From assembly GCA_000004985.1 (NCBI GenBank), contig GG738864.1: DNA of 64,000 nt. One strand, given 5' to 3'. This document shows, in pieces, positions 42,796-61,840 of the stretch. Position 1 is the stretch's first letter. Each line of letters opens with the position of its first letter. The translations under genes were made by a program, and so were the position numbers. The DNA is from Naegleria gruberi. Taxonomy: Eukaryota. Below the pieces are notes generated by a model. That model was not told the origin of the DNA and did not search any database. It worked only from the letters and a program-made list of their open reading frames with translations.

Positions 42796-45700
42796 TCAAT
42801 AGTCAAATAAATCATTCAAAGTTTCAAGTATTGACATGATTGGTGGTCGTTTCTCTTCCTCAGCTTTCCAACACTCCTGAATTAATCCACATAGACTGTA
42901 TACTTTGCTAGCTTCCAATGAATCAAAAGTTTGTGGATTATTTCTCTTACACCACTGAAAACATTCTTCCTTAGAATGGAAAGGGATGAGAGGTCTGAGA
43001 TTATCTTGACAAATCTTACTGGTGAGGAAGGGAGTACTTGGGAATTTTCTTTCCTTATCAAGATTTAATCGTTGTAAAGTTCTTGGTTCAGTGTAAGTGT
43101 AGGCATCTTGACATTCGAATAATAATTGCCACATGATAATGCCAAATGCATAAACATCACATGATTTGGCATCTTGAATAGTTCCATTAATCAATTGAGG
43201 GCTCATGAAATTATGTGTACCAATCAAGTGTGTCATTATTGAATTATTCTTATCTGACATTTTGCGTGACAATCCAAAATCACATAATTTACAAATTCCA
43301 TCTTTGGTTAATAAAACATTTCCTGGTTTGAGATCTCTGTGGACAATTGGAGTTGGTAAAGTGTGTAAATACTCAATACCTCTTGCAATACCTAAAAACA
43401 TTTGAATTTTACGATCAAATGTCATTATGACAGTTCCCTTTTCTAACTCATGAATTACATCAACTAGAGATTTGTCCAATCGTTCCATTACTATAAATCC
43501 CTTGTTAGGCATTATTGAAACTCCATAGAAAGATGTAATATTAGGATGTCTCAATTTGACCAGTATTTTGACCTCATTGATAAATTCCTGATCTTGAATG
43601 TCAGAATCCATTTCGAATACTTTTACAGCAACACTAATTCCTTTCCACATACTTTCTATAACCATTCCTTGTCCTCCTTTTCCAAGTCTCTTTCTATTTC
43701 TCAAGTCCAAATCACCAATAGGAATGATAAAATCATTTTGTGGACTAGATTCTGGATCTTGCAGCTCTATTGGTTTGTAATCATCACCAAATAACAATTG
43801 CTTTGATAGAGAATCTGCATCTCCAATAATTTTCTTCTGTTTTCCATATTTTCTGCACAGGAATACCAATAAAGACACCAATAATATCAAAAGTGCTAAA
43901 AAGACAATACTCAAAACGATTGGAACAATTGCTGAAATAACGGAATCATTCTTTTCACAATAATCTCCAGAAGATCCACTTAAACATTTGCAATCATCCA
44001 CGGAATTACACATTCCACGACCACTACATACGTTTGGATCATTCTGTGCTAAGCCATAACACATGGTAAATTGGCATTGGTTTCCTGTATATCTATTCTT
44101 ACTGCATGTACACTTATCAATATCGGTGCAATTTCCTCGACTTTTGGCACCTCCACACGCATCCGGGTTGACCTTTCCATAGCAGGTTGCAGTTTCACAA
44201 TTACTTCCCAAATATTGATCACTATTGCATTTGCAAGAGTTGGATGATTGGCATGTTCCTCTTCCATTACACACGTCCTTATTTGCATTGGTCAATCCAA
44301 AACACACAGGTATATCACATTCCTTTCCAGTAAATCCAGATTGACATTCACATTGATTATATCCTATGCATTTTCCTTTTCCACAAGCATCCCCCTCTGT
44401 TTTTCCATAACAAACAGGCAAACACAATGTGAAATTATCATTCAAAATGTAGCCATTAATTTCACAGTGTGGTGTCAATGTATAAATTGCTGTTCGAGTG
44501 CAATAAATGATTGAGCCAGTAAGTGGGTCGAATTCAATATCTAAGGCATTCTCATTCAGATTTGAAATAGTTTCCACTTCTCTTTCTGATTTGATTAAAC
44601 TAATTTTCCTTCCATATTTGTGAAGGACAATTATTTTGTTATCTAAATTGAATACAGGTGAAAATGGACCCTCCAATCCTGATTCAGCAATTGTTGTAAT
44701 TATTCCATTCTTATTAATTCTTCTAATTCTGTCATTTAACATGTCGCAAAATACTAGATCTCCGAAATCATTAATCAATAGTCCAGTAGGTTTGTTGAGA
44801 GAGGATTTCGTTGCTTGGATGTAGTTCGATCCTCTACCAACATCTCCGTCTCCTGCAAGAGTTGTCAGCATGCCATTTCTGTCAAGTTTTCTAATATTTG
44901 AAAATAAGTCATCTGTGAAATAAACAACATTGAAACTATCCACAACAACAGAATATGGATAAGCAATGCTCAATCTTTCAGTAATATTATCTCTTCCGTA
45001 TCCACCTAAAAATCATTTGATTAGAATCTTTGAGATTCTATGAAAATTTCAACATACCAGAAATGAATGTAATTTCTTTAGTTCTAATTGAATCTTCACC
45101 AGTCATGTTCAATCCTAAAACTCGGTGATTTCTCGAATCTAGAAAATAAAGCATGTCGCCATCCACAAATAAACCTTTAGGGCTGTTCAATTTAATCTTT
45201 GCTGGACTAGTGTCTCTGTTAAATCCAGAAACTCCAACTCCAATTGCTGTTGAAATAAAATGTGAATTCACATTAATTAGTCTAATACGATTATTGAAAG
45301 TATCTGAAACGAAAATTAATTCATTTCCATCGTGATCTGTATAATATTCAGCAAATGTTGGATAGAGAAAGCTGATAAAATTATTAGAAAGACTATGAAA
45401 GAAGCACATGTACTCACCTTGCACTCAGGGAGGAGCCACCATCACCTCCATAACCATCGCTTCTTCCTGCTATTGTTTGAGTATTGGAATTGGCATTGCC
45501 ATTTTGTAAAATTATCTTTCTAATTCTATGATTTGCTAATATAATTAGAATAGTTTGGAAAATTTGAAAACTTACCAGAATCTACAATATACAAATGGGT
45601 AATCTTCTCTGGTTTTTCAACACATAATAAACCATACGGTTGATTGAATGCTGATGCAAGAGGAGCCCCATCAATATATCCTTGATATCCAACACCTGCT

Positions 45701-47577
45701 AATAAGTATCCTCTAGTTTCTTTTAAAGGAAATTCCAAAATACGATGATTGAATGTATCTGAAACATATAGAGTATCTGAATTTGCAGAATATTTAATGT
45801 CAGTAGGAGCATTCATTTGGATTGCACGTCTTGGCTTACCACTATATGGAATAGCTGACCCATCATTGGGAATGGTGAATGTTGGAATTCCAGCAAATGT
45901 ATCAATTATTCCAGTAAGTAACGAAACGTTTCTGATCAATCCATTTCTTGAATCCACAATATACATGACATTTTTCACTATGCATAATCCTTTAGGAGTG
46001 GATAACTGAGCATTAATAGCTAATCCTCCATCACCACTAAATCCAGATTGTCCAGTACCGGCTACAACATAGATTTTCCCCTCTTTGGTAATTTTTCTCA
46101 CCATATTATTTCCTGATTCAGTGAAATAAATATTTCCATCATCTGCTTTGTAAATCGATAAAGGGGTGTCCAGAACTGCATTACTGGCATCCATTCCATC
46201 TTTCTGCTTATTTTTTTTCGAAGAATCAATTAGTACTGTTTTAACTTTCTTCTTGATAACAGCTAAGGATGTGACAGAGGTTTCTGGATCAATAGATGTC
46301 ACGTAAACGCTCTCATCTTCTCCTAAATCGAGCTCTGTATAAATTACACTTTGAGATGAGGAAATTTCAGTACTACTACCCTCCAAAGAGGATACTCTTC
46401 CTGTTGTGAGCGAAATATTTCGAATAATATTACCATCAGTCACGTACAAATTCCTCAATAGTGGAGATAAGGTAATTTTCTCCATTCCCGAAAATCCATA
46501 TTTTAACATGGGTATTCCGTCTAAACTCAATCCATCCTCTGAGAAGATTTTCATCAGATTTCCATTAATAATTGTTAAAATTGCATCGTGATAGGCAATG
46601 AATACATTACTTCCAATATACATATCAGTTACTTCTCCTAGTTCAACTTTGAGGGCAGGTCCATAACTGTACTCTGTTGAATCCTTTCCAGAACCAACAA
46701 TTGCCTTACTTGTTCCATTTCTATTAATTTCGAATATTCTCTGGTAGCAAAAGGCAAATAATTGATCTTGATAAATAGTGGAGGTTCTTAAAATTGTTTT
46801 TGAATTGATAAATTCTTCTTGGTTATTACCAGCTATGGTTACATTCATTGAAAATAGATATTTTGGTTGATTGCCAATTTCATCAAGAATAATGTAGAGA
46901 GAATCATCCTTCAACACGACGAATATTTCATTAGAATCCAAATTAATCGACATGGTAGCTATTGTCATATTAAAAGCAGCAACAGGTTCCGTCCTCAACT
47001 CATTCGTTGTAACATTAAAAGCCATAATCCTATTCGAATCGGCAAAATACAGCATTCCTCTATTAATGACTGCTCTGAGTGGTGGATTGGTCAATTGAGT
47101 TGGTTTCACAAGTGTAGTTGCCTTCCCTGACTTGGTATCAAATTTCCTAATGGCAGGTATTCCTTTATCAATGAAATACACTTGATCATAGGCAATTCCA
47201 TCATCATGAATACTTTTCGAAATGAAAATCGATGAAGGATTTGAAATTAAAGTACCATTCCAACCACCCTGTTTGCTATTAAATGGTTTTCCATACTCTC
47301 CAATCACAGTTTCCACATCACCACTCGACATGTTCACTCGCATGATGCTATTTTTCGAATGTGAAAAGTAGAAACAATTTGGATGAGAAACGGATGGAAA
47401 TACAGAGAGAATATTTCCGAGTTGAATATCTTGGGATTGAGCCAAGATGTTTTCTGCATAATTTACAGGAAGGGACAATTGGGATTGAACGTGATGATGA
47501 TGATAGAAACAAAGAAGAAGAAATGAAACTAAACAAAACGTGAATGATGTGAATAGTTGCATTTTTTTAAATATCAT
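42796..47577 (-). CDS. receptor kinase A: signal peptide - ~25-30 NHL beta-propeller repeats - 4-5 EGF-like Cys modules - TM - Ser/Thr (TKL-like) kinase; ~1547 aa, 4 exons (47577..45576, 45535..45418, 45371..45058, 45005..42796)
   Basis: Introns are 40, 46 and 52 nt with GTAAGT, GTGAGT and GTATGT donors. A 46-nt intron was chosen over a 25-nt alternative because it conserves the NHL spacing GDGGxxxxAxFxxPxF. The NHL consensus recurs, for example GFSGDGGLAINAQLSTPKGL...YIVDSRNGLIRNV. The EGF-like region is CNGRGTCQSSNSCKCNSDQYLGSNCETATCYG. The TM helix is IVPIVLSIVFLALLILLVSLLVFLC. Kinase motifs are LGKGGQGMV, VAVKV, HRDLKPGNVLL and DFGLS, with APE replaced by SPQ. Confidence 0.8.
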
Positions 47578-48421
47578 AGTGGAACCCGCTCATTGACAGC
47601 AGTTACTTACTCACCTTTCACTGCTGTTGAACTGACCATACCTGGAAGTTAAATAGTGATGGAATACGCTAAATAGTACGAACAAAAGATATTACACAAA
47701 TTACAATAACACAAAACCTCACAAGATGAAAGATTTATACAGCTCTTGCTATGAGAAGGGATTTTGGTTTTGTCAACACACGGTGTTGTTAACAATGTGC
47801 TGTTTACAGTGGTAATCATATCATCTTCGTGCTACTATCTTCTTCAACAACATGATGAGGTGTGGCTCCAAGTCTTTCTACTCACCAAACCAGAAGTTTT
47901 GCACGTAGATTTTGGTGAGTTAAAACAATATATTCTATTAATTCTAAAGAATATTCATCTTCTCTTGCGTTCGTCTTATCATACTTTTTGCAAATAAATA
48001 TTACCTGATGAGAGGGTTGGGTCATATTGCCAACAAGCGTTGCTGGTTTGTTGAGAGTGTTCAAAGTAGCAATTACCACATGTTGTTCTAGAAACAACAG
48101 TACTTCTGGGTTCTTGTACATGAACCTTCATTACCAACAATTTCAAGTAAATGGGCAGGCACTTACTAGATGATGTTTTGGTGAATGTAGTAATGGCTGG
48201 TGTGGAAGGAAGCAAAGGGATAGTCTCAAGGTAGCATGCTGCAGATTGGTATAGCGATGATGAAATCGTGATGAGTTATTATTGTTTTTTTGTTGAATAT
48301 TTAACGGTCAAAACAAACAACTTTCAGCGCGAAATTACAACATAACTACAAAAAACAATAAATTCAAGGTATAGACAAGTGTAGTAACCCCATCAAGGAA
48401 AAATACTTGTTGTGAATGTAA

Positions 48422-48493
48422 TCCCGTGTAGTCCAATGGCTAGGATACCTGGCTTTCACCCAGGAGGTCCGGGTTCAATTCCCGGCATGGGAG
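48422..48493 (+). tRNA. tRNA-Glu (anticodon UUC), 72 nt, no intron
   Basis: The cloverleaf folds by hand. The acceptor TCCCGTG pairs with CATGGGA (one G-U). The D stem is GTCC/GGAT. The anticodon stem CCTGG/CCAGG carries the loop CT-TTC-AC. The variable loop is 4 nt. The T stem CCGGG/CCCGG has the loop TTCAATT. The A box is TAGTCCAATGG and the B box GGTTCAATTCC. Overall it resembles eukaryotic tRNA-Glu-TTC. Confidence 0.9.
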
Positions 48494-48498
48494 GATAA

Positions 48499-48540
48499 TT
48501 TTCCATTTACGATTTAATGTTTATTTCTCACGTTTTTTTA
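48499..48540 (+). terminator. RNA polymerase III terminator T-runs downstream of tRNA-Glu (TTTT at ~48499-48502; T7 at ~48534-48540)
   Basis: The first oligo-T run lies 5-6 nt past the tRNA 3' end. A second longer run lies ~40 nt downstream. Confidence 0.4.
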
Positions 48541-48566
48541 AAAGAAAGTCAATTATATATTCCCAA

Positions 48567-49511
48567 TCATGGCTTCTTACTTGTTTTTTTCTTAATGCAA
48601 ATCTTCTTCTTAATTGACTTGCAACACTTCTTCTTTCCACCAACTAATTTGAATTTCTTACAAATCTTCTTTCCCTTTGAACGTTTCAAGCATTTCTTAT
48701 AATACTTCTTCTTGATACATCTTGGTGGAATGACAATTGACTTTGCACAATACTTCTTCTTTTGATATTTGACACATTTGGAAATAGTCTTCTTGTGCTT
48801 ACAGAACTTGATTGTCTTATGCTTGGCACAGAAGAATTTCTTCTTAATGAGACAACATTTCTTGATGGATTTTCTCTCCTTACAATATTTAACCTTCTTA
48901 TACTTGGCACATTTCTTTGCCCATGCAACAATCTTGCACTTTTTAACATATCTACATTTGGCGACCTTCTTTTTGTAGGAATCAATAGTGTACTTGTCGC
49001 AAATCTTCCTCTTTTCACACTTCTTGATTGGAACCTTCTTGAATTTCTTACAGACCTTCTTAACTCCCTTCTTGAAACACTTGTTGATAATCTTGTGTTT
49101 GGCACAGAATTTCTTGAAACTCTTCTTGATGCAAATCTTTCTAGTTCCATAAGAATCACAAACTTTCCAATACTTCTTCTTGGCACATCCAACAATCTTG
49201 TACGCGTGCAAGACACACTTCTTTGTTGGCTTGCTGTACTTGTCACATTTGGAATATTTCTTATGTTTGAGACATTTGCCAGCACCGACGATGGCATATT
49301 TATCACAGACTTTCTTTTGACCGACGAGTTTGTGTTTCAAACACTTCTTAATCCACTTGTGCTTTAAGCATTTTCTCTTACAATGCTTTGGTTTGTGATA
49401 CTTGTCAACTATGGCGACTGGAGGTTTAGTTCGATAGGTGTCACTTGCTTGAACTGAGAGGATTGCAAGTAAGAGAAGAATTGCAAATGAAAAGATTAGA
49501 TTTGCTTTCAT
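48567..49511 (-). CDS. secreted, extremely Lys/Cys-rich repetitive protein (314 aa; signal peptide MKANLIFSFAILLLLAILSVQA; ~35% Lys, ~12% Cys in CxK / KKC / CxKHK periodic motifs)
   Basis: ATG-initiated ORF. Its composition is far outside this window's norm. The long antisense ORFs over it (48686..49306, 48762..49367) are low-complexity shadows. Confidence 0.6.
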   Translation of the reverse strand: MKANLIFSFAILLLLAILSVQASDTYRTKPPVAIVDKYHKPKHCKRKCLKHKWIKKCLKHKLVGQKKVCDKYAIVGAGKCLKHKKYSKCDKYSKPTKKCVLHAYKIVGCAKKKYWKVCDSYGTRKICIKKSFKKFCAKHKIINKCFKKGVKKVCKKFKKVPIKKCEKRKICDKYTIDSYKKKVAKCRYVKKCKIVAWAKKCAKYKKVKYCKERKSIKKCCLIKKKFFCAKHKTIKFCKHKKTISKCVKYQKKKYCAKSIVIPPRCIKKKYYKKCLKRSKGKKICKKFKLVGGKKKCCKSIKKKICIKKKTSKKP

Positions 49512-49736
49512 TTTTTTTTGTTATTGGATGGAATAGTTCAACAAGTGGGTGATAATTTAAACCCTTTCGAATAGTTTTGCATTAGGAACAAACTAAAACA
49601 AGTTGCATGTAAGGTTCCAATTTTGGATAGAAAGCTGATCTCCATTCGAAATCTTTAACTAATTCAATTTGCAATTCATCTTTCAAAAGAATTCATAATC
49701 TTAAGGTATTGTTTCTCAGAAAATCATTAGATTAAG

Positions 49737-51119
49737 ATGAATCTTGAGTTGCATCGTTTGAAACGCGAACTCATTTCTAATGAACTTTCCAATAAAAAAT
49801 CATCAAAAAAAATGTCAAAAGAACTGCTCATTCAAGACACTTACGAATTTGTGGATATTTTCTCTCAAGTTTTCCAATTCATGGAAATTAAAGATATCTA
49901 TCCACTACAAAGAGTTTCTGGTTTCTTCTATCGGATGATTGAAAACTTGAAGGAAACTTACATTCGTCCAGTTTACGAAATCGGAGTTGTGGCCACAAAC
50001 GAAGAGCAGTTAGAAAATTTTATTCGAATCTATTTAAATTCATCACAACCACCAAAGAAATATCCAACAATGGACGAATTTATTGCTTCGGATAATTTCA
50101 CAGACGAAATTGCTTCCATTAATAATGTTTTTACAGTTTATGAGAAATACGAAAGGCAGTTTATTTTCAAACAAGATAGATTTAGGGCAATTTTCTATCC
50201 GATTCTGTGTCATAGACATGGAAGTTTGGGAAGAGATGAGCTGAATAGATTGGAAGGGTTTATTTTCCTTTCGCCAGAATATTCGACAGGTTATGCACTC
50301 ATGCCTGAGGGTGTTGATATTTGTGCAACTGTTTTGGATGATCACTATTATTCCAGTAAGCATTTCGTTAAGGAGGAAGAAAAGGAAAAGCTTACAGATA
50401 GAGGATTAGGATTTGTTAAAAATCCAAATTCGAATCCACCAAATACGAATCCACCTTTTGTAAAATTGAAGAAAATTCGAATGCCAGTCATTGAATTTGG
50501 AACTGTTGAAGTGGATGAGAAAGTTTACAAGTACCAGGAGGAATCTCTTGTACAATGCTTAATGTATATTGTGAGTCATTCTAAGAGATGTCTAGATTTG
50601 GATCACTCACTTTCGAATAAGAAACAAAATATGGAAGAATTGAAAGGTTCTCAAAAATTATTTGAAAAAATTACAAAATTAATCAAATTGAAAGATGAAG
50701 AGTTGATGAAAACATTGAAAAGTCTTTTCAAAAATCGATTTGAATATTACAATTTGTTGACCACAGACAATTTGGTCTACATGACGAAACGTCTATGTTT
50801 CTTCCACATTCCTCTTGGAGTTCAAGTTGTTTTATTGAAGAAATTATACACTACACTTGTAAAGAATACTGCATCCCTTTCTGTTAATAATGGAAAAGCT
50901 TCTGTCAAAGTGGAAAGTGAATTTATCAGTGTCCAGTACAAGCAATTAGTTTCCACCGACGATTATGAGTATGTTTATGGATATCATACAAGGAAAAATA
51001 AGAAGGACATTCGGATGGTAACTATTCGATTCTATTATGGAGAGAAAATTGAATTTAAATATGAAAATATTGGAAAGGAAAATACCACACAAAAAGAAGA
51101 TAAATGTTCTTTACAATAG
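49737..51119 (+). CDS. hypothetical protein, 460 aa, with an N-terminal F-box-like segment
   Basis: LLIQDTYEFVDIFSQVFQFMEIKDIYPLQRVSGFFYRMI resembles the F-box consensus LPxEILxxIFxxL...LxxVCKxW. The rest is unassigned. Confidence 0.45.
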   Translation: MNLELHRLKRELISNELSNKKSSKKMSKELLIQDTYEFVDIFSQVFQFMEIKDIYPLQRVSGFFYRMIENLKETYIRPVYEIGVVATNEEQLENFIRIYLNSSQPPKKYPTMDEFIASDNFTDEIASINNVFTVYEKYERQFIFKQDRFRAIFYPILCHRHGSLGRDELNRLEGFIFLSPEYSTGYALMPEGVDICATVLDDHYYSSKHFVKEEEKEKLTDRGLGFVKNPNSNPPNTNPPFVKLKKIRMPVIEFGTVEVDEKVYKYQEESLVQCLMYIVSHSKRCLDLDHSLSNKKQNMEELKGSQKLFEKITKLIKLKDEELMKTLKSLFKNRFEYYNLLTTDNLVYMTKRLCFFHIPLGVQVVLLKKLYTTLVKNTASLSVNNGKASVKVESEFISVQYKQLVSTDDYEYVYGYHTRKNKKDIRMVTIRFYYGEKIEFKYENIGKENTTQKEDKCSLQ

Positions 51120-51159
51120 AGTTGAAAAGAGCTGTCAAAAAAGGAAAATAATTGAAATT

Positions 51160-54100
51160 TTATTTGAAATAATTGAGGGAAAGAAGTTGAGATGCATTTG
51201 GTCTTTGTTTTGAATCTTTTTCTAACATTTGCAATACAATTTCAATTAAATCATTCGAATATTCATTATCATTGGATTGTTTCATTTGTTTTGTTAGAAT
51301 GTTGATTGCGTTTTGTGATTGAATTCCCATCAACAAGTTGCTGATTGATGTTTCCTTGTCTTTTGTCATGATTTGATAAATTGAAACACCCAAAGAGAAA
51401 ATATCAGTATTAAAGGAATAGGAACTGCCAAGGGCAATTTCTGGACTCATATCTGAATGGTTTAGTTTCGTCTAAATAAAAAAATAAACTTACATAAAGG
51501 AGTTCCAGCATAGGATTGACCTTTTGATTCTTGAAACTTTTTAGCCAATCCAAAATCTGCCAAAACAATTTCAATTTTTTCACTTTCCAACTTTTTTATA
51601 AATATATTTGTTGGCTTAATATCTCTATTTTTCCAAAATTGATTTTACAAATTCCTAATATATACTTACCTATGAATAATATGCATCTCCTCATGAACAA
51701 GTTTCAATGCACTCAACATTTGTTTCAATATTTGCTTCAATAATTTCTCACTCACTACTTCGTCGTGTTTCAATAAATTTGTCAAATCTCCACATTCATA
51801 ATAATCCATGTCAATAATCAATAAATTGTCGTTGGTGATGAAATAATCATTCACCTTGATGATATTTGGATGATTGATATGGCTCAATTGGGATGCCTCT
51901 TTCATGATGGTATTCAAATCAGTGAATGATTCAAATCTGATAAGTTTGATTGCTTTCAGTTTGTTTCCATGTTTAATATCTGAAACTTTGAAAACACTTC
52001 CAAATGCTCCTTGTCCAATTCTTACAATATTCGAATATCTTGAGAAGGGATTTTCTTCAGAACTACTGGACGAGCCATTTGATGAAGAAATAATCATTGA
52101 GCTGGTGGAAGGAAATTCATTATCCGAAAGTTCAATATTGTTAGTATTGACCTGAACAATTTCCAATTTCTTATTCTTTCTTTTTCTTGAATTGAAGCAC
52201 ATTACCATAATGACTACTATTACAATTATTGTAAACAAAATTAATAAAGATCCAACAATAGGAATAACAATTGCAACTATTAATACTGATGAGTTGGTCG
52301 ATAATTGTCTTGCAATCTTAGTTATTTCACAATACTTTCCTTCAAAATCATCTTTACATTGACACGTGTCAAAATCCGAACAAATTCCATTTCCATTGCA
52401 AACACTTGAATTAGTTGCCAAAGTTCCATTACAATTCAATAGCATATCACACGTATTATTCCAAGTATTGAAAACATAATTTTCCTCACATTGTGGAATA
52501 ATCTTTCGAATATAAGTTGTTGCATCAATGAAGAAAATTTCACCTGAACTTTCGTCAAATTCAACTTGTTTTGTGAAGGAAGTAAATATTGTATCGGAAC
52601 CCTTTCCATCTCCATTGAATGCAGGAGAGGATGACCTCTTTCCAGCCAAGTCAATCAATAATCCACTCTTTTTCTCGTACATTCGAATAAGATTAGGAGC
52701 GCCTTTACTAGTTACTGTTCCATCTAACAATATAATATCACCATTCTTCTTGACAAAGATAGCAGAGGGGTTATCAATCGAAGATTCTAGTGCTGGTAAT
52801 CTGTCTCCTGAATATCCTTGAGAGAAAGTTCCCACCAAAGTTCTCAAATAAAATTGATTATTCGAAATCTTTTCAATTCTTCTAATGGTTTCCATTGTAC
52901 TTAAATAAAGATTTCCATCAATATAAAAAAGTGAAGTAATTAATCCAGGATACGTTTGAAAATTAACAACTATTCCGTCAGTAGATATTGGATTTGAGGA
53001 ATTGAACGTAAATTCCAGATTTAGTAGTTGAGTTTCCAAGCTGTATCTGTAAATATGCAAGATGTCTGATATTACTAAATCACCATTTGATTCATCTATT
53101 GTAAACCCTGACATTGCATTTGGTGGACAAGGTGAAAGTGTTCCCTTGACATTTGGTACAAAAGCTCCACAAGCACTTCCAATCACTCTTTCATAATTCA
53201 TAGTTTCTGGATCAAGTCTGATAATTCTACATGTTTCCTTAATGTATATCTTGTTATCAAATTTGGAAAGTTTACCAAAAGTTTTTAAACCAAGTATTGA
53301 CATGGTGATTGTCAAATAAGGAAAATCAAAAACTGGAATAGAAGGCAATAAAAACCAGCTAAGTGAAATTGACTTGCCTGTTTTTTCGTCAAACTTTTTT
53401 AAAACTCGATAATTATCAATGAAATAGTTTATCTTTTTAGCCGAATCTCTCATCAACAAAACAGGACTCAATGTTTTAGCTAATGGATTGAGTCCAGCTA
53501 TGGTTTTGATTGTTCCATTTGAAATTTCACTGATATAATTGGAGCAGGAGATGTAAATTCTTGAATCTTCTCTGTTCACTTGAATTGCATAACTTTGTAT
53601 TTGATTGTAATCTAATTTCAGTTTACAAAAATTACTTACGTTGCTGAAGTTTCAATAGGAATGTCATCACCATTGAATCCAGATGTATAAATATTAGTAT
53701 TTGAAATGTTAACCGCATCAAGTCCAACAATTTTCTTTAATGAAAGTGAATCCCATGAATATTCATAAACTTGTGAATAAATATAGAAATAGAAAATTCT
53801 GCCAAATGTAGTAAATCCATTAAATGATATATCTGATATTTTTCTAATACTAGTTGTATAATTTCCATTCTTATAATCAATATATTCATAAATACTGTTA
53901 CCAGAATAATATAACAGAGAATTAGTTCCATTTATGGTTAAATCTGGAATAACACGTATCAAACCTAACCCAGGGATATCAATTTTCAGGATATACAATA
54001 GATTGGATTTGTGAAAAACTGAAAAGGTTTGAACGTAAGTTTGATAATAAATTGTTGAATTCTCATAGGAATCCCCTGTTGCAGTAATGGCACTCGAATA

Positions 54101-55548
54101 ATATTTTGGATCGTGAACAAGTGTCAAATTTTGAGTTTCCATATTGAATACGTATAATCCCAAATTTATACTACCAGTAATCAAAATTTCTCCATTTCCA
54201 AAATGATGTAAAAAGCCAATTGAGAAGAAAATTCGACTAGGTTTGTTGGAGGGGTATTTCAATTCTTTGGAAGAGCCAAATACTGTTGTCATTTTCCCAT
54301 TCGAAACCTTTCGAATTACTAAAGATTGTTCAACAAAATAGAGATCGTTCTTGTATCGAAATGGAAATGTAGTAGCTCCGTAAGTGTACATTTTGAGAGG
54401 TGAAATATTTTCACCATACGGATGATTGATTATTCCACCTGCAAGTGTAGAAACCATCTTGCTTTGTAAATCAATCTTTCGAATACAACTGTTCGATTTA
54501 TCCGCAACCAAAATTGAATTACGAGTCACAATCAAAGAAGAAGGTTCATAAAACTTGATACTAGAGGTATCATATAATTGATTATCACCTTCATATCCAC
54601 TTTCAGATACAGAACTTCCAATAAATAAAAGAGTAGAGGATGATTTTTCCTTTTTCATCTGAATGAAATGATTTGATTGTGAAGAGGTGTAAATTTCACC
54701 TTCATTCGAAACATAAATTCCATATCTGAAAGTAAATATTAAATTTCATCATTATTACTATTCGAAACTTACAAATTAGATTGAGATAATCCTCCATCCA
54801 CAATTCTATAAAATCCATTTTCATCAATTGACTTGACTCTTTCCTCATCTGTGAAATATACAATATCATTCTTTCCATTATTAGAATAAACATATATATT
54901 CTTTGGTGATTTTAAAAGTAATGACTTGGCATCAACTCCATCATAATCTCCATTTAGATAACCACCTCCTCCTAATATGGAAAGTGTTTGAGTGGCAATT
55001 TCATATTTCCAAATTAAGTTATTATTAGTATCTGCAATGTAGGCATTTCCATTCTTTGAAACACTGACACCTTTTGGTTTGTTAAAGGTATGCGAAATGG
55101 AAGAAACCAATTTGGTCGAATACGAAACTATTCGAATCATATCATTCAAAGTATCGGCAATAAACAAATCACCATTCAATGGATTCACTGCCACAGATGT
55201 TGGTGTATTCAGTAGAGTACCAACAGCACTCTGTCCATCTCCATTAAACCCACTCGTTGTAAATCCAGCATAAACTTCCAAAGTTGACCAATTTTGATCA
55301 TAAATTCTATAAATTAAATGTCTTTCAATATCAGAAATATAAATCTCACCATTCAATCCTTCACATAATCCACTCGGTGATAACATGTAAGCAAATTTCG
55401 CATCCACCACATCAAAATTAGTTGTACTTCCTTCAATTGTTTTGGTTGAGTAATATTTCACATTCTTCGATCTTTCCACAGCAGCACATGTGCTGGCCAA
55501 CAAGTTGCTGAGCAGGAGTAGTAGTAGTATTGAAGTGGTGACCTCCAT
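51160..55548 (-). CDS. receptor kinase B (paralog of A/C): signal peptide - NHL propeller repeats - EGF-like modules - TM - Ser/Thr kinase; ~1402 aa, 5 exons (55548..54773, 54725..53640, 53592..51670, 51624..51494, 51452..51160)
   Basis: The signal peptide MEVTTSILLLLLLSNLLASTCAA starts at an internal Met of track ORF 54769..55824. Introns are 47, 47, 45 and 41 nt, all with GTAAGT donors. A kinase exon missed by the ORF track encodes HRDIKPTNIFIKKLESEKIEIVLADFGLAKKFQESKGQSYAGTPLY|MSPEIALG. Other kinase motifs are IGQGAFGSV and AIKLI. The TM helix is LIVAIVIPIVGSLLILFTIIVIVVIMV. EGF-like modules include CNGNGICSDFDTCQCKDDFEGKYC. Confidence 0.8.
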
Positions 55549-56212
55549 TGAAAGACACCTGCCAACTGTCGCATGTCTTGAGTAATGGTACAACATGTTT
55601 GCTTTATTTTTGTTTATTTTGAACAATACATCTTGTGCGTCTATTTCCGAATAATCAATGTGGGTTAAAGGATAATTGTTCCAACTCCATAACAGATGTT
55701 GTAAAGAAATTGATGTATGGTGATTGGATGAATATTCCTCTTTTTTGGCAAGTTTCGTCATCATCTCATGCGGGTAAATTAGTGTTACTGTACCGTTGTA
55801 GTAGCTCGAACATTCTATGTTCAAAGGATTAGTCTAAATTCGAATAAAAATTAAAGATCTAATTAAACTCCACATGATTCATTTCTTGTGTAATATGCAA
55901 ATTATCAGCAATAGATTCAGGAAATTGTAAACTCCATCTTCATGATCCAATTCATAATATTCATTGTTTTCCAAATTTACAATAACTGAACAAACAAACC
56001 TTGCTTCAAAAAATCAACCAAACTCTCGTAATACCTTGCTTGGTTTTCGTTCCAACAATTCATCTCTTGCTGTAAATTAAGATGAATTACTGTGTGATCA
56101 AGTTTTTTCCTTAGATTCTAGTTGTAAAAGAGAATTCTCCATTTCTAAAAGAGATCCAAAGGAGGATTGACTAAAGTGCATACATATAAGTGTTAAAGTG
56201 ATTGTTTATTAA

Positions 56213-59200
56213 TTAATTTTTGAGTGAATTTTTCAATAGAGAAAGAATTTCATTAAAGTGGTGAATAGAAGGTCTTTGAGAAGGATTAGTTTCCCATCCC
56301 TTCTTAATTAAATCAAGTAATTGGTAGATTACTGTACTTTCTTGGAGTGAATAGGCCTTTTTCATTTCACACCAAGATTGACAATCTTCCAAAGTTTCGA
56401 ATGGAATGAGTGGACGATGTCCAGATGCAATCTTTGGAAGCAGTTGGCTTAATAAATTTTGATATTGAACTGGTTGTTCAAGATTCAACTTGTTTAATAT
56501 CAATGGATTCGTATAATAATAAGGATCCATAATTTCAAATAGAATTTGCCACATGATTATTGACAAACTATAAATGTCAACAGCAGTTAACAATTGCCTT
56601 TCAATTTCACCAAATGATTCAGGACTATTAATCAAAATCATTAGAAAGATAATAAATAGTAATACTCTACCTCATATAATAAAAAGTTCCAATTTGATTT
56701 GTAATTTGCGTGTTGTTTTGCTTATTCAAGAGTCTGGACAAACCAAAATCACACAACTTGCTCACTCCATGAACATCTTGCAAAATATTGGCAGGTTTCA
56801 AATCTCTGTGCACGATCGTTGGTTTCAGATTGTGTAAATATTCGATTCCTTTGCAGATATCAAGCATAATATCCATCTTTTGACTCAATGACAATTTCAT
56901 TCTATTAGATTGGAGTTCAGCAATAATATTTTCAAGACTTCTCTCCATTTTCTCCATTACAATATATCTCTTGGTTGGAGTAGAAGAAACTCCAAAGAAG
57001 GAAATAATATTTGGATGTCTCAATCTGGAAAGAACTGTTGCTTCAGACCTAAAATCATTTTCATCAATATTCATATTATTCAAATCGAAAACCTTAATAG
57101 CTACTTCAGTTCCAATCCATTGAGATTGATAAACTGATCCATAGCCACCAGAACCAAGTTTCTTCATTTTACCCAAATCCAACTTGTTAATAGAAATGAA
57201 GAATGAATCTGCTTCATCCTTCTTCTTTCCATCATTGTCAATTTCCAGTTCAAGCATGTTATCAGTAACAAATTGATCAGTTTTAATGATCTTTCTCTGA
57301 ACATAATACTTTCTGAATAGACCAATAATAATGAAAAGTGAACCACCAATGCAAAAGACAAGAACTGCAACACCTATTAAAGCACCAATAAGAGCCCACA
57401 GTTCATCAGAATGTTGACATTGTTCACCTGAATAACCAAATTGACAGGTGCATTGATTTGGAAGTGAACAACTGCCTCTTCCATTACAAACGTCTGCCTC
57501 TTTTTCATTCCTTCCAAAACATGTCATTAATTCACATTCTAAACCAGTATATCCAGTATTACAAGAACATTGATTCTTGTCAAGGCAACTTCCTCTTACT
57601 GAACCACCACAAGCCCCGTCAAGAATCTTTCTGAAACAAATTGGCGTTTGACACATTGAGGAAGTATATCCTTCTTTACAAATGCAAGTATTTGGAGCTG
57701 TGCAGTTACCTCTTCCATTTGTGCAAACACTGGAACTATTAGAAGCTTCTCCATAACAAACTGGTATTTCACATTCGAAACCTGTATATCGAGACGAGTC
57801 ATAACATTGACACAAATCTGGTGAAAGACATTCTCCATTATTATTGCAAACATTTCCACTCAACAGTTTGATCTTTCCATAACAAATTGGAAGGCAAGTA
57901 TCATTCTTTGAATAGACATGACCATTCTCACAGAAAGCTTCCAATTTTCTAACATTATTCAATGAAGAATCGATAAAGAATAATACATTTCCTTCATTGT
58001 TAATTGTCATGGAGGTGGGTGAAATACTGAAAGGTTTTGATTTGGTTTGAGATGGAGCAGATCCATCCCCCGCAATTACATCAAATGGATGACTAGCAAT
58101 GGTTGAAATCTTTCTAATAAAATTGTTTTTGCTATCTGAAATAATTGTTTGTCCCTTATAAGAAACAACTGAGGAAGGTGAATTTAAGGAACTTGTTTTT
58201 GGATCAGAGGTTTGAGAGAAGCCAGTGAACCCATTACCTGCTACAGTTTCCAATAATCCTTTCTTGTTAATTTTTCTCACCTTACTAATTCCAGATTCGA
58301 CAAAGATTAATTCACCCTCTTCATTGACATACAATCCTTTAGGTGCTGCAATATCTGATGAAATGGCCAATCTTCCATCCTCGGAGATTCCAAACAATCC
58401 AGTTCCTGCAATAGTTGAAATTACTCCATTTGTGGAAATCTTTCTAATTCTATTCTGAGCTGTTTCACTAACGTACATTTCACCACTCGAGGAGAAGGCA
58501 ACATACGAAGCCTCAACTTGTGAATAAAGAGCCAAGTTATTGTCGCCAATTCCTCCAGCAAATTTCTTTACCCACTTTCCTTCAATTTGACTTTCCAATA
58601 TTCTATTGTTACCTTTTCAAATTTCTTAATAAAATAATTCTAAATACTTTTAACTTACCTGAATCAGCAATAAATAAAATAGATTTGGAATGGTCAAAGA
58701 AGGTACATTGTGGATTATTCAATTTGACATTAGAACCTGTAATGTTTCCTTCGAAATAATTATAACCTGCAAAACCATTACCAACAACTGAATAAGTGGA
58801 CGAAAGGACAGCAAATCTAATTCTATGAGATTGGGAATCAGTAATGTGGATATCAGTTAAAGCAGATCCAACTGAGTTTACACTCGAAACACAAGTTGGT
58901 GTATTGTAAATTGCATTTGGTAAATTAAAATCATCTGTGTAACCCTTAGCTCCACTACCACTATGCGTAGTTACAGTTACTGGATCATTAAAAAGTGGTT
59001 GTAGATCAACATATCTAATACGATTATTTCCAGAGTCTGCAAAATAGATAATCCAATCTGAATTGAGAGAGAATCCCATAGGTGTGTCCAAATGAGTGGA
59101 GAGAGCTGGCCCATCACCATTGAATCCCTTTACACCACTTCCAGCAATGGTTTGAATAATACCAGTACTAAGAGTAATTTGTCTTAATCTATTATTGAAA

Positions 59201-61022
59201 GTATCAGAAAAAAACAATTCATGATAATAATTGACTTGGAGATAGGTTGGAGAATTCAATTGAGCAGTAAGGGCATTAATATTGTCTCCATTGTAACCTT
59301 GTATTCCATTTCCTGCAATGGTTTGGATGATTCCAGATGTTATGTTGACAGCTCTAATTCTATGATTATTGGTATCGGCAACATAGAGCACATTATTATC
59401 CAAATAGATTCCAGTTGGAGAATTAAGCTTGGCCAATGTTGCTAAACCACCATCACCATCAAATCCAGAAGTTCCACATCCAGCAACACCAATTACCACA
59501 CCACTAGTTCTGTGAACCTTAATAATTCTATGATTTCCAGAATCAGAAATGTATACATAACTAGTTGTTGCAAAAATTCCCTTTGGAGAGTTTAGAACTA
59601 GTTGATCTTTGTGTTGCTGTAAAAGCCTGGATGCTGTTATTGGACCTGCAAACATTGTTGAAATGCTTCCATTATATTTGTGAATGAAACCCTTTGATGA
59701 GACAACATATAGATCACTGTTATTGGTTGAGACTGAAACTGGATTGAGAGCAAAAGGTTGATAGGTATCAATGAAATTCAACTCCTTCTCTGGGGCTATC
59801 ATTTCAAGTTTGTTGTTTGCTGAGATTTTTCGTACAGCTCCATAGTCAGAAACGTAAAGGTTTCCACTTTGCTGATCCAGAACTATTCCAGTTGGAGAAT
59901 GAAGTGTTGTCTCACTAGAATTGTATCCATCAATAAATGGACCAATAACAGCTCCATCATAATTAATAAACAAGATCAATGATATTGTTTCATCAATCAT
60001 TGAAATTTTTCTAATTGTTTTCAGTCCAAAATCGCTAACGTACATGAAACCATTATGAATACCAAAATACTGATTTATGGCAATGAATTCAGCATCACTT
60101 GCCTTTCCACCATCTCCAAAAGTGGTTGCTTCCAAACTAGCCTGTTTACCATTTCCAACAAATCTTGAAATATTTCCATTTCTCAAATCCATTTTCCTTA
60201 TTGTCGAAGAAAGCTCTTTAGTATCCACGTATAGCAAGTAATTATCCACTCTCAACAGTCCTGGATGAGTAAAATCTAAATTTTCTACCAACAGCTCTTC
60301 ACCATTATCAATGGTCCATCTACAAAGTGATTTCACATCAATATCTTTAAATTTGAAATAATAAACGACACCATCATCATCCACATAGACATCCAAAACA
60401 TTTGATGATGTTGAAATGTAGGTGCTGACAATACCATTCTCTACTTTTCTAATTGCATCATTATACCCATCTGCAATGTACATAATTCCATCTTTATCAA
60501 TGAACATTGAATAGATCCTAGTGTGTATGAAATGTGTTAGATAAAGAACAAATAATTGAACACATACCCATCAAAGAGAGCTTCTCTTGCATCTCCTCCA
60601 TCACCACTATATCCTGATTCATCTTTGATTCCGACAATTACTGTATAATTAGCCTCAACTTTTTCATTGATAATACTTATGGAAGTGGAATCGGAACAAT
60701 AAACAACACCACTTTTAACATTCACGTATAATGAACAAATGAATGGCTTCTTGAGGAGTGTCATCTTTTTTGATACTGCATCTATTTTAGCAATGAAACT
60801 ATCATCCACGGTATCACATTCAAAATAAATGTGTCCTTCATTAGTAACATGGACAGCTCCTAAACCACTGAATACATTCTGTTTGTGAGGTTTGGTTACA
60901 TCACTCAGTGAGTATTTTGGTGTTGTTTGACCAAAGGATTCCCTTAGTAGGAATTGTGTGAAAAAGCAACAAGCTAACAACACTAAGGCAATGACGGATT
61001 GGAAAGGAAGGTGTTGCTTCAT
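56213..61022 (-). CDS. receptor kinase C (paralog of A/B): signal peptide - NHL propeller repeats - EGF-like modules - TM - Ser/Thr kinase; ~1555 aa, 4 exons (61022..60568, 60517..58659, 58612..56671, 56624..56213)
   Basis: The signal peptide is MKQHLPFQSVIALVLLACCFF. Introns are 50, 46 and 46 nt with GTATGT, GTAAGT and GTAGAG donors. The exon junctions ...EALFDG|IYSMFIDKDG and ...IADSG|GNNRILES fall inside NHL repeats, and ...GTFYYM|SPESFG inside the kinase. NHL consensus examples are YVADTNNHRIRAV, FFSDTFNNRLRQI and ADSGNNRIRYV. EGF-like modules include CNNNGECLSPDLCQCYDSSRYTGFECEIPVCYG. The TM helix is LIGALIGVAVLVFCIGGSLFIIIGLF. Kinase motifs are LGSGGYGSVY, VAIKV, HRDLKPANIL, DFGLS and YMSPE. 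Confidence 0.8.
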
Positions 61023-61774: not shown

Positions 61775-61830
61775 ATGAAGCAACCTTTCACACAACTTGC
61801 TCACTCCATCGTAAATCAAAGTTTTTCTTC
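61775..61830 (-). pseudogene. short antisense footprint of a kinase catalytic-loop/DFG region (remnant of a further paralog)
   Basis: A 22-nt exact match tcacacaacttgctcactccat occurs with kinase C at ~56745-56766 on the plus strand. The minus-strand translation ...LIYDGVSKLCERLLH matches kinase C's DVHGVSKLCDFGLSRLL. It overlaps the first 18 codons of track ORF 61775..62800. Confidence 0.4.
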
Positions 61831-61840
61831 AACTTGGAAC

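What the first reader, a model, noticed from the sequence alone, without database searches (positions are those of the whole stretch)
42796..61022. Tandem array of three paralogous receptor kinases with extracellular NHL beta-propeller + EGF-like ectodomains
Three consecutive minus-strand multi-exon genes (A 42796-47577, B 51160-55548, C 56213-61022) each encode a predicted type-I receptor. Each has a signal peptide, about 25-30 NHL repeats (enough for several six-bladed propellers), 4-5 EGF/tenascin-like Cys modules, a single TM helix and a Ser/Thr kinase of TKL/Pelle-like type (HRDLKPxN, DFGLS/DFGLA). The NHL propeller as a sensor fused to a Ser/Thr kinase is known from bacterial PknD. NHL propellers plus EGF arrays are known from animal teneurin/tenascin-type proteins. 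I know of no described eukaryotic receptor-kinase family with this combination. The paralogs are strongly diverged in their ectodomains but keep intron positions inside NHL repeats and inside the kinase. That pattern indicates an old, actively diversifying family, a candidate self/non-self or environmental ligand-sensing system. Kinase A has the APE motif replaced by SPQ, so it may be catalytically altered.
Basis: partly seen in the sequence, partly recalled or inferred. Interest (0 to 1): 0.85.

Follow-up and report, generated by a model that had tools for sequence, protein, structure and literature searches.

The report
Naegleria NHL-propeller/EGF receptor kinases
Three neighbouring genes of the amoeba Naegleria gruberi encode single-pass membrane receptors that join a very large outside part (about 18 NHL beta-propeller blades plus EGF modules) to an inside protein kinase, an unusual and undescribed but not revolutionary receptor design whose ligand is unknown.

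Summary
The window is Naegleria gruberi. My gene C model (1555 aa) is identical to the annotated 'predicted protein' XP_002677980.1. All three minus-strand genes have the stated start and stop coordinates. Each encodes an N-terminal hydrophobic leader, NHL blades, EGF module(s), one TM helix and a kinase with all catalytic residues.

Several details are wrong:
- There are about 16-18 blades of ~57 aa, enough for three six-bladed propellers, not 25-30 repeats.
- EGF modules number 4, 1 and 4 in A, B and C.
- A and C are collinear paralogs (31.6% identity) with TKL-type kinases. B has a kinase of another group (best matches STE20/NEK/ULK).
- No intron position is shared.
- The array is interrupted by a tRNA gene and two ORFs.

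The A/C kinase lineage was found only in Naegleria. There it also sits under beta-helix or EGF-array ectodomains. A further NHL-EGF-kinase occurs in N. lovaniensis, and a near-complete one on a metagenome contig.

They are most likely type I receptor Ser/Thr kinases activated by extracellular binding to the propellers; the ligand is unknown. They are neither teneurins nor PknD homologues by architecture. I found no literature on them. I rate them a new variant of a known kind, of moderate interest.

The parts
42796..47577 (-). Gene A, 1547 aa. Exons: 47577-45576, 45535-45418, 45371-45058, 45005-42796 (stop included). Introns of 40, 46 and 52 nt.
   Evidence: The only intron combination giving one open frame. 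This exact model is not in the protein collection, so the public annotation differs somewhere.
44470..47412 (-). Gene A NHL blade region (aa ~56-990). 13 HMM hits plus degenerate stretches, about 16-17 blades.
   Evidence: Blade HMM. Pfam TEN_NHL 8.8e-11 and NHL 1.9e-5.
43954..44466 (-). Gene A: Cys-linker and four 6-Cys EGF modules (aa 992-1162).
   Evidence: Pfam EGF_2 3.7e-8 and EGF_TEN 1.9e-8. Cys pattern read in the sequence.
43858..43941 (-). Gene A transmembrane helix (aa ~1167-1194), followed by RKYGKQKK.
   Evidence: Kyte-Doolittle 19-residue peak of 3.35.
42820..43704 (-). Gene A TKL-type kinase domain (aa 1246-1540): GKGGQG, VAVK, HRDLKPGN, DFG, SPQ. No intron.
   Evidence: Pfam Pkinase 6e-43. 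Motifs. Clade with C, 89% bootstrap.
51160..55548 (-). Gene B, 1402 aa (or 1395 aa with the alternative acceptor at 53572). Exons: 55548-54773, 54725-53640, 53592-51670, 51624-51494, 51452-51160.
   Evidence: The exact model is not in the collection.
52491..55449 (-). Gene B NHL blade region (aa 34-988). About 10 clear blades; the middle part (aa ~405-780) is degenerate.
   Evidence: Blade HMM. Pfam NHL 3.3e-13 and TEN_NHL 1.2e-10.
52344..52490 (-). Gene B: Cys-linker and a single EGF module (aa 989-1037).
   Evidence: Pfam EGF_2 4.2e-4. Linker motif CEENYVFNTWNNTCDMLLNCNG, shared with the family.
52215..52304 (-). Gene B transmembrane helix (aa ~1051-1080), followed by NSRKRKNKK.
   Evidence: Kyte-Doolittle peak of 3.27.
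51163..52040 (-). Gene B kinase domain (aa 1139-1402): GQGAFG, AIK, HRDIKPTN, DFGLAK, SPE. Two introns. Not TKL.
   Evidence: Pfam Pkinase 78 bits against PK_Tyr_Ser-Thr 44.5 bits. Best solved relatives are STK25/MST3, ULK3 and NEK1/7.
56213..61022 (-). Gene C, 1555 aa, equal to XP_002677980.1 / D2VDH5_NAEGR. Exons: 61022-60568, 60517-58659, 58612-56671, 56624-56213.
   Evidence: Exact match to the public protein.
57936..60890 (-). Gene C NHL region (aa 45-997): 18 blades, taken as three six-bladed propellers.
   Evidence: Blade HMM. The AlphaFold2 model shows 18 four-stranded units and is confident for C aa ~356-661. Foldseek matches six-bladed NHL propellers: SOQ1 TM 0.78, NHLRC2 0.76.
57441..57932 (-). 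Gene C: Cys-linker and four EGF modules (aa 999-1162).
   Evidence: Pfam EGF_2 9.7e-14 and EGF_TEN 7.9e-13.
57312..57428 (-). Gene C transmembrane helix (aa ~1167-1205), followed by RKYYVQRK.
   Evidence: Kyte-Doolittle peak of 2.86.
56237..57176 (-). Gene C TKL-type kinase domain (aa 1251-1548): GSGGYG, VAIK, HRDLKPAN, DFGLSR, SPE. One intron just before SPE.
   Evidence: Pfam Pkinase 2.4e-38. Best solved relatives are CTR1, ZAK/MLT, TNNI3K and SOBIR1.

Best explanation
Genes A, B and C encode type I single-pass receptor serine/threonine kinases of Naegleria gruberi.

Shown:
- Each protein has a leader-like N-terminus and an ectodomain of roughly 950 residues. The ectodomain is built of about 18 NHL blades of ~57 aa, enough for three six-bladed beta-propellers. 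At least the central propeller of C models confidently as a closed six-bladed NHL propeller.
- A conserved two-Cys linker follows the last blade. After it comes a stalk of teneurin/tenascin-type EGF modules (four in A and C, one in B), one TM helix with a positive-inside flank, a juxtamembrane segment of about 50-60 residues and a C-terminal kinase with a complete catalytic apparatus.
- A and C are whole-length duplicates whose kinase belongs to a TKL-type receptor-kinase radiation found here only in Naegleria. Other members of that radiation carry beta-helix/PMP-repeat or EGF-array ectodomains.
- B carries the same NHL-linker-EGF cassette on a kinase of a different group.

Inferred: the NHL-EGF cassette and the kinases have been recombined as modules. 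The propellers bind an extracellular ligand or surface, for example bacterial prey, substrate or other cells. The EGF stalk holds them away from the membrane. Binding changes receptor oligomerisation and lets the RD-type kinases phosphorylate each other's activation loops and downstream substrates. The ligand and the pathway are unknown.
For: - Organism and gene model.
- Open frames and splice sites.
- Domains.
- Blades.
- Topology.
- Catalytic residues invariant across the family.
- Kinase group.
- A-C collinearity (31.6% over ~1300 aa) and the distance of B.
- One uninterrupted ORF per gene joining NHL, EGF, TM and kinase.
- Same architecture in N. lovaniensis XP_044551476.1. On an environmental contig the same parts are present in two reading frames.
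- The same kinase lineage under other ectodomains.
- Shared linker motif.
Against: - There is no transcript, protein, localisation or activity data.
- Signal peptide and TM helix rest on hydropathy only; no dedicated predictor was available.
- The structure model is poor overall (mean pLDDT 59, pTM 0.50). The first propeller is low-confidence, the third only moderate (pLDDT about 55-88), and the EGF stalk is below 50. 'Three stacked six-bladed propellers' is therefore a count, not a demonstrated arrangement.
- My A and B models differ from the public annotation somewhere.
- Ligand-induced dimerisation is by analogy with other receptor kinases.
- A has Gln in place of the APE Glu.
- The database tools failed to retrieve known family members, so family size and distribution are poorly sampled.
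Confidence: 0.72

Rival explanations
1. They are chiefly adhesion or self/non-self (kin) recognition molecules. The propellers would bind homophilically or to polymorphic partners on other Naegleria cells, with the kinase reporting contact.
For: The ectodomain resembles adhesion proteins: teneurin-type NHL and EGF. Propellers are more diverged than kinases between A and C. The genes are clustered.
Against: No polymorphism or population data exist. The divergence is between old paralogs at about 31% identity, not between alleles. Faster ectodomain evolution is usual for any receptor. No paired ligand gene is evident in the cluster.
Confidence: 0.12
2. The ectodomain is an enzyme rather than a binding module, for example a lactonase or hydrolase of the six-bladed SGL/arylesterase/Vgb-lyase kind acting on bacterial metabolites. 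The kinase would report or be unrelated to catalysis.
For: Weak Pfam matches to SGL (3.5e-5), Arylesterase (3.8e-4) and Vgb_lyase (7.6e-3), all below or near their cut-offs. Many bacterial relatives are auto-named 'sugar lactone lactonase YvrE'.
Against: These matches fall under the stronger NHL/TEN_NHL hits and reflect the shared fold. No active-site or metal-binding residues were identified. Three tandem propellers on an EGF stalk look like a binding platform.
Confidence: 0.05
3. One or more of the three genes is a pseudokinase or decaying duplicate that acts, if at all, as a scaffold or decoy. A (SPQ for APE) and B (degenerate middle blades) are the candidates.
For: APE Glu replaced by Gln in A. 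The region of B at aa ~405-780 gives only weak blade matches. The A and B models are not identical to the annotation.
Against: All reading frames are intact over 1400-1550 codons. The G-loop, catalytic Lys, alphaC Glu, HRD, Asn and DFG are present in all three. The APE position varies among clearly intact family members.
Confidence: 0.07
4. Annotation artefact: the ectodomain and kinase parts are separate genes wrongly joined.
For: Gene models were built here by ORF and splice-site logic only.
Against: In each gene a single uninterrupted ORF runs from NHL blades through EGF and TM into the kinase. The C model equals the independent public model. The same fusion occurs in N. lovaniensis.
Confidence: 0.02

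Closest known systems
Mycobacterium tuberculosis PknD (Hanks-type kinase with an extracellular NHL beta-propeller sensor; PDB 1RWI/1RWL)
   Same: A Ser/Thr kinase joined through one TM helix to an extracellular six-bladed NHL propeller of unknown ligand. There is weak direct sequence similarity of the blades (1rwi, E 1.3e-6). One PknD-like locus was seen among the metagenome kinase loci (L024).
   Different: PknD has its kinase at the N-terminus and one propeller at the C-terminus (from my knowledge of the published structure). Here the order is reversed, with a cleavable-type leader, about three propellers, an EGF stalk and a eukaryotic TKL-type (A, C) or STE/NEK-like (B) kinase.
Teneurins and bacterial teneurin-like proteins (for example B. 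inaquosorum TLP, PDB 9pt5/9ifo; PMC13018210)
   Same: The best solved-structure sequence match of the blades is 195 bits, E 2.5e-56. The Pfam models that hit are TEN_NHL, EGF_TEN and EGF_Teneurin. Both combine an NHL propeller and EGF modules in one ectodomain.
   Different: There is no FN-plug, no YD/RHS shell and no toxin domain. Topology is type I rather than type II. The EGF modules lie membrane-proximal after the propellers. There are three propellers instead of one, and a cytoplasmic kinase.
Plant RLK/Pelle receptor kinases and Raf-like TKL kinases (CTR1/EDR1)
   Same: The A and C kinase domains find CTR1, EDR1/SIS8, cysteine-rich RLKs, SOBIR1 and FERONIA as their best matches outside Naegleria. 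The overall logic is shared: leader, variable ectodomain, one TM helix and an RD Ser/Thr kinase. So is the family habit of swapping ectodomains.
   Different: Identity is only 30-40%. A neighbour-joining tree does not place them inside the plant clades. NHL ectodomains are, to my knowledge, not among plant RLK ectodomains. The kinase carries a family-specific C-lobe insert with the invariant motif RPxIPF...W.
Entamoeba/Dictyostelium/Acanthamoeba transmembrane kinases (protist TMKs; PMC10463195, PMC4053784)
   Same: Amoeboid protists with lineage-specific expansions of single-pass Ser/Thr(/Tyr)-type kinases carrying grouping-specific ectodomains.
   Different: The TMKome survey does not mention Naegleria or NHL domains. 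The kinase lineage here was found only in Naegleria.
LRP4/LRP5/6/megalin YWTD-propeller-EGF modules
   Same: Tandem six-bladed propellers alternating with or followed by EGF modules in a type I ectodomain. They appear as loose global structural analogues.
   Different: The repeat family is different: YWTD/LDL-receptor class B, not NHL. The rmsd exceeds 20 A over the long alignments. They have no kinase.

Membership tests
Eukaryotic protein kinase superfamily (active ePK) | Gly-rich loop, VAIK Lys, alphaC Glu, HRD catalytic loop with Asn, DFG | tested here: met
   All are present in A, B and C and invariant in the family alignment. Pfam Pkinase scores are far above the cut-off.
Eukaryotic protein kinase superfamily (active ePK) | APE motif Glu pairing with the subdomain XI Arg | tested here: inconclusive
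   B and C have SPE. A has SPQ. Relatives have ANE or AEL. The effect on activity was not testable.
TKL kinase group | Kinase domain closest to the TKL families (Raf/MLK/RLK-Pelle/RIPK), with the Ser/Thr-type HRDLKxxN loop | tested here: met
   This holds for A and C only. Best PDB matches are CTR1, ZAK, TNNI3K, SOBIR1, RIPK2 and FERONIA. Best database matches are EDR1/CTR1/CRKs. B does not meet it: its best matches are STK25/MST3, ULK3 and NEK, and Pkinase scores well above PK_Tyr_Ser-Thr.
RLK/Pelle (IRAK) family | Kinase domain nested within the RLK/Pelle/IRAK clade | tested here: inconclusive
   In a small neighbour-joining tree, A and C group with Naegleria receptors, not with the plant CRKs or CTR1/EDR1, and the deep nodes are weak (44%, 28%). 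No proper kinome-wide phylogeny was done.
NHL-repeat six-bladed beta-propeller | Pfam NHL/TEN_NHL matches above the gathering score | tested here: met
   NHL scores 49.4 bits (B) and 49.0 bits (C) against a cut-off of 20. TEN_NHL scores 41.8 (A), 41.4 (B) and 74.7 (C) against 27.1.
NHL-repeat six-bladed beta-propeller | Closed six-bladed fold of four-stranded blades | tested here: met
   Met for the central propeller of C: pLDDT above 90 over about 300 residues, and TM 0.76-0.82 to SOQ1, NHLRC2 and Pizza6 over about 340 columns. For propellers 1 and 3, and for A and B, it is inferred from blade counts only.
Teneurin / teneurin-like proteins | FN-plug + NHL + YD(RHS)-shell superfold (PMC13018210) | tested here: not met
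   No YD/RHS, FN or toxin family appears among the Pfam matches at E <= 0.01. The sequence between the blades and the TM helix is fully accounted for by EGF modules.
PknD-type bacterial sensor kinases | N-terminal cytoplasmic Hanks kinase, one TM helix, C-terminal extracellular single NHL propeller | tested here: not met
   The domain order here is the reverse, with about 18 blades and EGF modules. The kinase is closest to eukaryotic TKL or STE/NEK kinases.
Type I single-pass receptor | Cleavable signal peptide and one TM helix, N-out/C-in | tested here: inconclusive
   The hydropathy profile, the positive-inside flank and 10-13 N-x-S/T sequons outside against 1-3 inside fit this topology. No signal-peptide or topology predictor, nor any experiment, was available.
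LDL-receptor class B (YWTD) propeller-EGF receptors | Ldl_recept_b repeats | tested here: not met
   There is no PF00058 match in A, B or C. The resemblance is only a loose structural one.

The most novel reading that the evidence does not exclude
In Naegleria an NHL-propeller + Cys-linker + EGF cassette is a portable extracellular sensor. Its blades most resemble bacterial surface-protein NHL repeats, so it may have been acquired from bacteria. The cassette has been wired independently to at least two unrelated kinase groups (TKL-type in A and C, STE/NEK-like in B) and to non-kinase membrane proteins. It would form a lineage-specific pattern-recognition system for bacterial prey or for other cells. 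That would be an independent invention of receptor-kinase sensing in Discoba, parallel to plant RLKs and animal receptor kinases.
Probability: 0.2. Interest if true: 0.7.

Novelty: new variant of a known kind. Interest (0 to 1): 0.45.

Why it matters
Receptor kinases are well understood in animals and plants. They are barely studied in Discoba, a deep-branching eukaryotic group that includes the brain-eating N. fowleri.

These genes show that Naegleria builds single-pass receptor Ser/Thr kinases by combining a genus-restricted TKL-type kinase lineage, and at least one other kinase group, with interchangeable ectodomains. One of these ectodomains is a triple NHL-propeller/EGF design, which I could not find described for any eukaryotic kinase.

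They give concrete candidates for how a free-living amoeba senses prey, substrate or conspecifics. They also offer a eukaryotic counterpart for the still ligand-less PknD sensor.

The significance is limited because nothing is known of expression, ligand or pathway, and because the sequences are already public as uncharacterised predictions.

Tried and rejected
1. Word-indexed homology searches.
- With full-length C, the search was swamped by bacterial NHL proteins.
- With the EGF-TM-kinase part and with a four-member family profile, plant kinases swamped the results.
- None of these searches retrieved gene A or the N. lovaniensis homologue. They are therefore uninformative on family size.

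2. Exact look-ups of my A and B models found nothing. I could not compare them with the public annotation. The N. gruberi scaffold is not in the contig index.

3. Metagenome scans.
- The single-protein query found no relative.
- The profile query picked the generic motifs HRDLKP[AG]N and RHPN... and returned 80 generic kinase loci at 27-37% identity in the listed rows. Only one of these (L024) is PknD-like.

The rerun with per-exon rows gave a mediocre model.

5. The afdb50 fold library was not available. That would have been the way to find other eukaryotic NHL-kinases by description.

6. My first neighbour-joining tree was invalid: NaN distances from the Kimura correction. I redid it with Poisson distances.

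7. Teneurin membership was considered and rejected for lack of a YD shell. LRP-type membership was rejected for lack of YWTD repeats.

8. A GPS/GAIN reading of the N. lovaniensis neighbour gene rests on a motif seen by eye. Pfam did not support it.

9. Eight literature searches found nothing on these proteins. The N. gruberi genome paper is not held, so I cannot exclude a passing mention there.

Full report
**What the window is.** The window has about 33% G+C. Long ORFs are interrupted by GTAAGT...AG introns of 40-52 nt. Its gene content fits Naegleria: DUF4116 repeats, leishmanolysin, an EML-like WD40 protein and a bicarbonate transporter. The identification is direct. My spliced model of gene C (1555 aa) is residue-for-residue identical to XP_002677980.1 / NAEGRDRAFT_66846 / D2VDH5_NAEGR, a 'predicted protein' of N. 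gruberi. The neighbouring ORF 61775-62797 equals XP_002677886.1.

**Checking the observation.** For each gene only one or two combinations of strong donors and nearby acceptors give a single open frame:
- A: 47577..42796, three introns, 1547 aa.
- B: 55548..51160, four introns, 1402 aa, or 1395 aa with an alternative in-frame acceptor.
- C: 61022..56213, three introns, 1555 aa.

Pfam finds Pkinase/PK_Tyr_Ser-Thr, NHL/TEN_NHL and EGF_2/EGF_TEN/EGF_Teneurin in all three. The join between ectodomain and kinase does not rest on any predicted splice. In each gene one uninterrupted ORF contains NHL blades, the EGF module(s), the hydrophobic helix and the kinase. For A that ORF (42796-44973) holds the whole kinase. 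For B (51666-53579) it runs to the HRD motif, and for C (56667-58598) through DFG and the activation loop, stopping just before the SPE motif. This disposes of the 'separate genes' refutation for the core architecture. At this base composition a 725-codon open frame has a chance probability of about 4e-25 (my arithmetic).

**Topology.** Each protein has a hydrophobic N-terminal segment preceded by charged residues. Each also has exactly one very hydrophobic stretch (Kyte-Doolittle 2.9-3.4 over 19 residues). That stretch lies after the EGF region and is followed directly by a basic cluster: RKYGKQKK, NSRKRKNKK and RKYYVQRK. There are 10-13 N-x-S/T sequons on the N-terminal side and 1-3 on the kinase side. 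This fits a type I receptor. It is not a substitute for a signal-peptide or topology predictor, which I did not have.

**Blade and EGF counts.**
- I built a blade HMM from the clear DxxN-x-x-IR motifs and iterated it on the three proteins. The repeat unit is about 57 aa. It has the 'AG-G--G--GDGG-A--A-L--P-G' loop followed by 'G-LY-AD--N--IRK'.
- C has about 13 significant blades plus short degenerate ones.
- The AlphaFold2 model of the C ectodomain shows 18 successive four-stranded units, which is three times six.
- A and B have 13 and about 10 clear blades. The degenerate stretches between them keep the strand pattern, so I estimate 16-18 blades each.
- Reading the Cys pattern, A and C have a two-Cys linker followed by four six-Cys EGF modules. 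B has the linker and one module (sequences).

**Structure.** The model is mediocre overall, with mean pLDDT 59 and pTM 0.50. The alignment is deep only over the four or five most canonical blades. For model residues about 325-630 (C residues about 356-661) pLDDT is mostly above 90. Foldseek against the PDB superposes about 340 columns on known six-bladed NHL propellers: SOQ1 lumenal domain (TM 0.78), NHLRC2 (0.76) and the designed Pizza6 (0.82). The central propeller is thus a closed six-bladed NHL propeller. The arrangement of the three propellers and the EGF stalk (pLDDT below 50) remains unknown. By sequence, the nearest solved relatives of the blades are:
- the bacterial teneurin-like protein of Bacillus inaquosorum (195 bits; identified through PMC13018210);
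- SOQ1 and NHLRC2;
- teneurin-2;
- PknD, far weaker (E 1e-6).

**The kinases.**
- A and C carry GxGxxG, the catalytic Lys, the alphaC Glu, HRDLKPxN and DFG.
- Their best solved relatives are CTR1, ZAK/MLT, TNNI3K, SOBIR1, RIPK2 and FERONIA.
- Their best database relatives outside Naegleria are plant Raf-like EDR1/CTR1/SIS8 and cysteine-rich RLKs. They are TKL-type Ser/Thr kinases.
- B is different. It has HRDIKPTN, DFGLAK and GTPLYMSPE, and Pkinase scores far above PK_Tyr_Ser-Thr. Its best relatives are STK25/MST3, ULK3 and NEK1/7.
- A does have SPQ where C and B have SPE.
- In a family alignment that position reads SPE, SPQ, ANE or AEL, while every catalytic residue is invariant. I therefore expect A to be active. 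The missing Glu-Arg salt bridge could affect stability or regulation.

**Relationship of the three genes.**
- A and C align collinearly over about 1300 residues at 31.6% identity.
- B gives only local matches of 24-27%.
- Between A and C the propellers are 21, 33 and 27.5% identical. The EGF region is 44% identical and the kinase 42%.
- No intron lies in the same alignment column in any two genes.
- A's first intron and C's second intron fall at the same point of the repeat unit (after 'DS', phase 1), but in blades that do not align with each other.
- B's and C's introns near SPE are two codons apart and in different phases.
- Kinase A has no intron.
- The array is not contiguous. A tRNA-Glu gene, a Lys/Cys-rich secreted-looking ORF and a 460-aa plus-strand ORF separate A from B.

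**The wider family.**
- An exhaustive HMMER search with the TM-plus-kinase part of C against 1.84 billion cluster representatives returned many multi-kinase proteins. It also returned a set of single-kinase proteins of 1000-1240 aa that match end to end.
- All ten of these that I looked up with the exact-sequence tool, apart from one unnamed environmental fragment, are N. gruberi or N. lovaniensis 'predicted/hypothetical' proteins.
- Their ectodomains differ. P0255 (N. lovaniensis XP_044551476.1) has 12 NHL blades, one EGF module, a TM helix and a kinase. P0311 has an EGF array. P0283, P0285, P0287, P0342 and P0369 have beta-helix or PMP repeats.
- A JGI metagenome contig (L001) carries NHL blades, four EGF modules and a TM helix in one ORF. 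The kinase, 51% identical to C, lies in an overlapping ORF in another frame, so a frameshift or a tiny intron separates them.
- In a neighbour-joining tree of kinase domains, A, C, the L001 kinase and an N. gruberi kinase-only model (XP_002679619.1) form a clade with 89% support. XP_002679619.1 may be a truncated annotation of a fourth member.
- P0255 groups with the beta-helix and EGF-array receptors with 94% support.
- A linker motif (C-E-x-G-aromatic ... C ... C-[YFN]-G) directly after the last blade is shared by A, B, C, P0255, L001 and an NHL-EGF gene without a kinase next to P0255.
- Together these results point to modular recombination. One NHL-linker-EGF cassette sits on at least two kinase groups and on non-kinase proteins. 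One kinase lineage sits under several ectodomains.

**Mechanism.** Shown: the architecture, the intact catalytic residues and the propeller fold of the central domain. Inferred from the general behaviour of single-pass receptor kinases and RD kinases: ligand or surface binding by the propellers changes oligomerisation, which permits trans-phosphorylation of the activation loops (rich in Ser/Thr: '...NKQNNTQITNQIGTFYYMSPE') and downstream signalling. The EGF stalk would act as a rigid spacer. Nothing identifies the ligand. The strongest similarity of the blades to bacterial surface proteins makes bacterial origin of the module plausible. Prey or surface sensing is an attractive guess, but neither was tested.

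**Comparison with known systems.**
- Functionally the closest analogue is PknD, but domain order, propeller number, EGF modules and kinase type all differ.
- The Pfam models that fit best are teneurin-derived. The defining FN-plug/NHL/YD-shell superfold is absent, so these are not teneurins.
- They behave like plant RLKs and protist TMKs in logic: variable ectodomains on an expanded kinase lineage.
- The TMKome survey that I could read mentions neither Naegleria nor NHL.
- Eight full-text searches found no paper on these proteins.
- The N. gruberi genome paper is not in the library, so a passing mention there cannot be excluded.

**Verdict.** The finding is real and the core interpretation is right, with several overstated details. 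The genes are already public as uncharacterised predictions. What is new is the recognition of the architecture and of its modular context. I rate it a new variant of a known kind (single-pass receptor Ser/Thr kinases), of moderate interest.

Noticed in passing
window 61775-62797 (+): The gene head-to-head with gene C (XP_002677886.1, 341 aa, no leader) has NHL-like blades in its C-terminal half. The blade HMM gives E 2.9e-5, and Pfam NHL scores 19.3 bits, just under the cut-off of 20. A cytosolic NHL-like protein therefore sits next to the receptor cluster.
   Followed up: partly
window 48567-49511 (-): A 314-aa ORF between genes A and B has a signal-peptide-like start and an extreme Lys/Cys-rich repetitive sequence (CxKHK and KKC motifs). 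It has no Pfam match, and this exact sequence is not in the protein collection.
   Followed up: partly
window 48422-48493 (+): A tRNA-Glu(TTC) gene lies inside the cluster, between gene A and the Lys/Cys-rich ORF.
   Followed up: no
window 49737-51119 (+): A 460-aa ORF on the opposite strand between the Lys/Cys-rich ORF and gene B has no Pfam match, and this exact sequence is not in the collection.
   Followed up: no
L002 15481-17568 (N. lovaniensis PYSW02000013.1): 1.7 kb downstream of the N. lovaniensis NHL-EGF-kinase lies a gene with about 6 NHL blades, EGF modules and a C-terminal 'C-I-T-N-H-L-T-S-F-G' motif. By eye the motif resembles a GPS autoproteolysis site, but Pfam GPS/GAIN was not detected. 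The NHL-EGF cassette is thus also used without a kinase. The giant N. lovaniensis proteins P0021 and P0027 also have NHL + EGF, and P0027 carries a precomputed REJ domain hit.
   Followed up: partly
P0246 = N. gruberi XP_002679619.1 (another scaffold): This 303-aa kinase-only gene model is 50% identical to kinase C. It is sister (99% bootstrap) to the kinase of the metagenome contig that carries NHL-EGF. It may be a truncated annotation of a fourth NHL-EGF receptor kinase.
   Followed up: partly
window 6974-14569 (+): A single 2531-aa ORF whose only Pfam match is a C-terminal RGS domain.
   Followed up: no
window 19498-21480 and 21558-23759 (-): Two long ORFs (660 and 733 aa) have no Pfam match at E 1e-3. 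They lie next to an EML-like WD40 ORF (23832-25196).
   Followed up: no
L024 5668-7773 (groundwater metagenome contig ERZ1292640...270): Among 80 generic kinase loci, one ORF joins a Hanks-type kinase to NHL blades. It is a PknD-like bacterial sensor kinase.
   Followed up: no
genes A and C, kinase C-lobe (for example C aa ~1455-1520): The Naegleria receptor-kinase lineage has a family-specific insert between subdomains X and XI. Its invariant motif is R-P-x-I-P-F ... E ... W, with an additional conserved Cys-x-x-W-Cys in the A/C subgroup. Its function is unknown.
   Followed up: no
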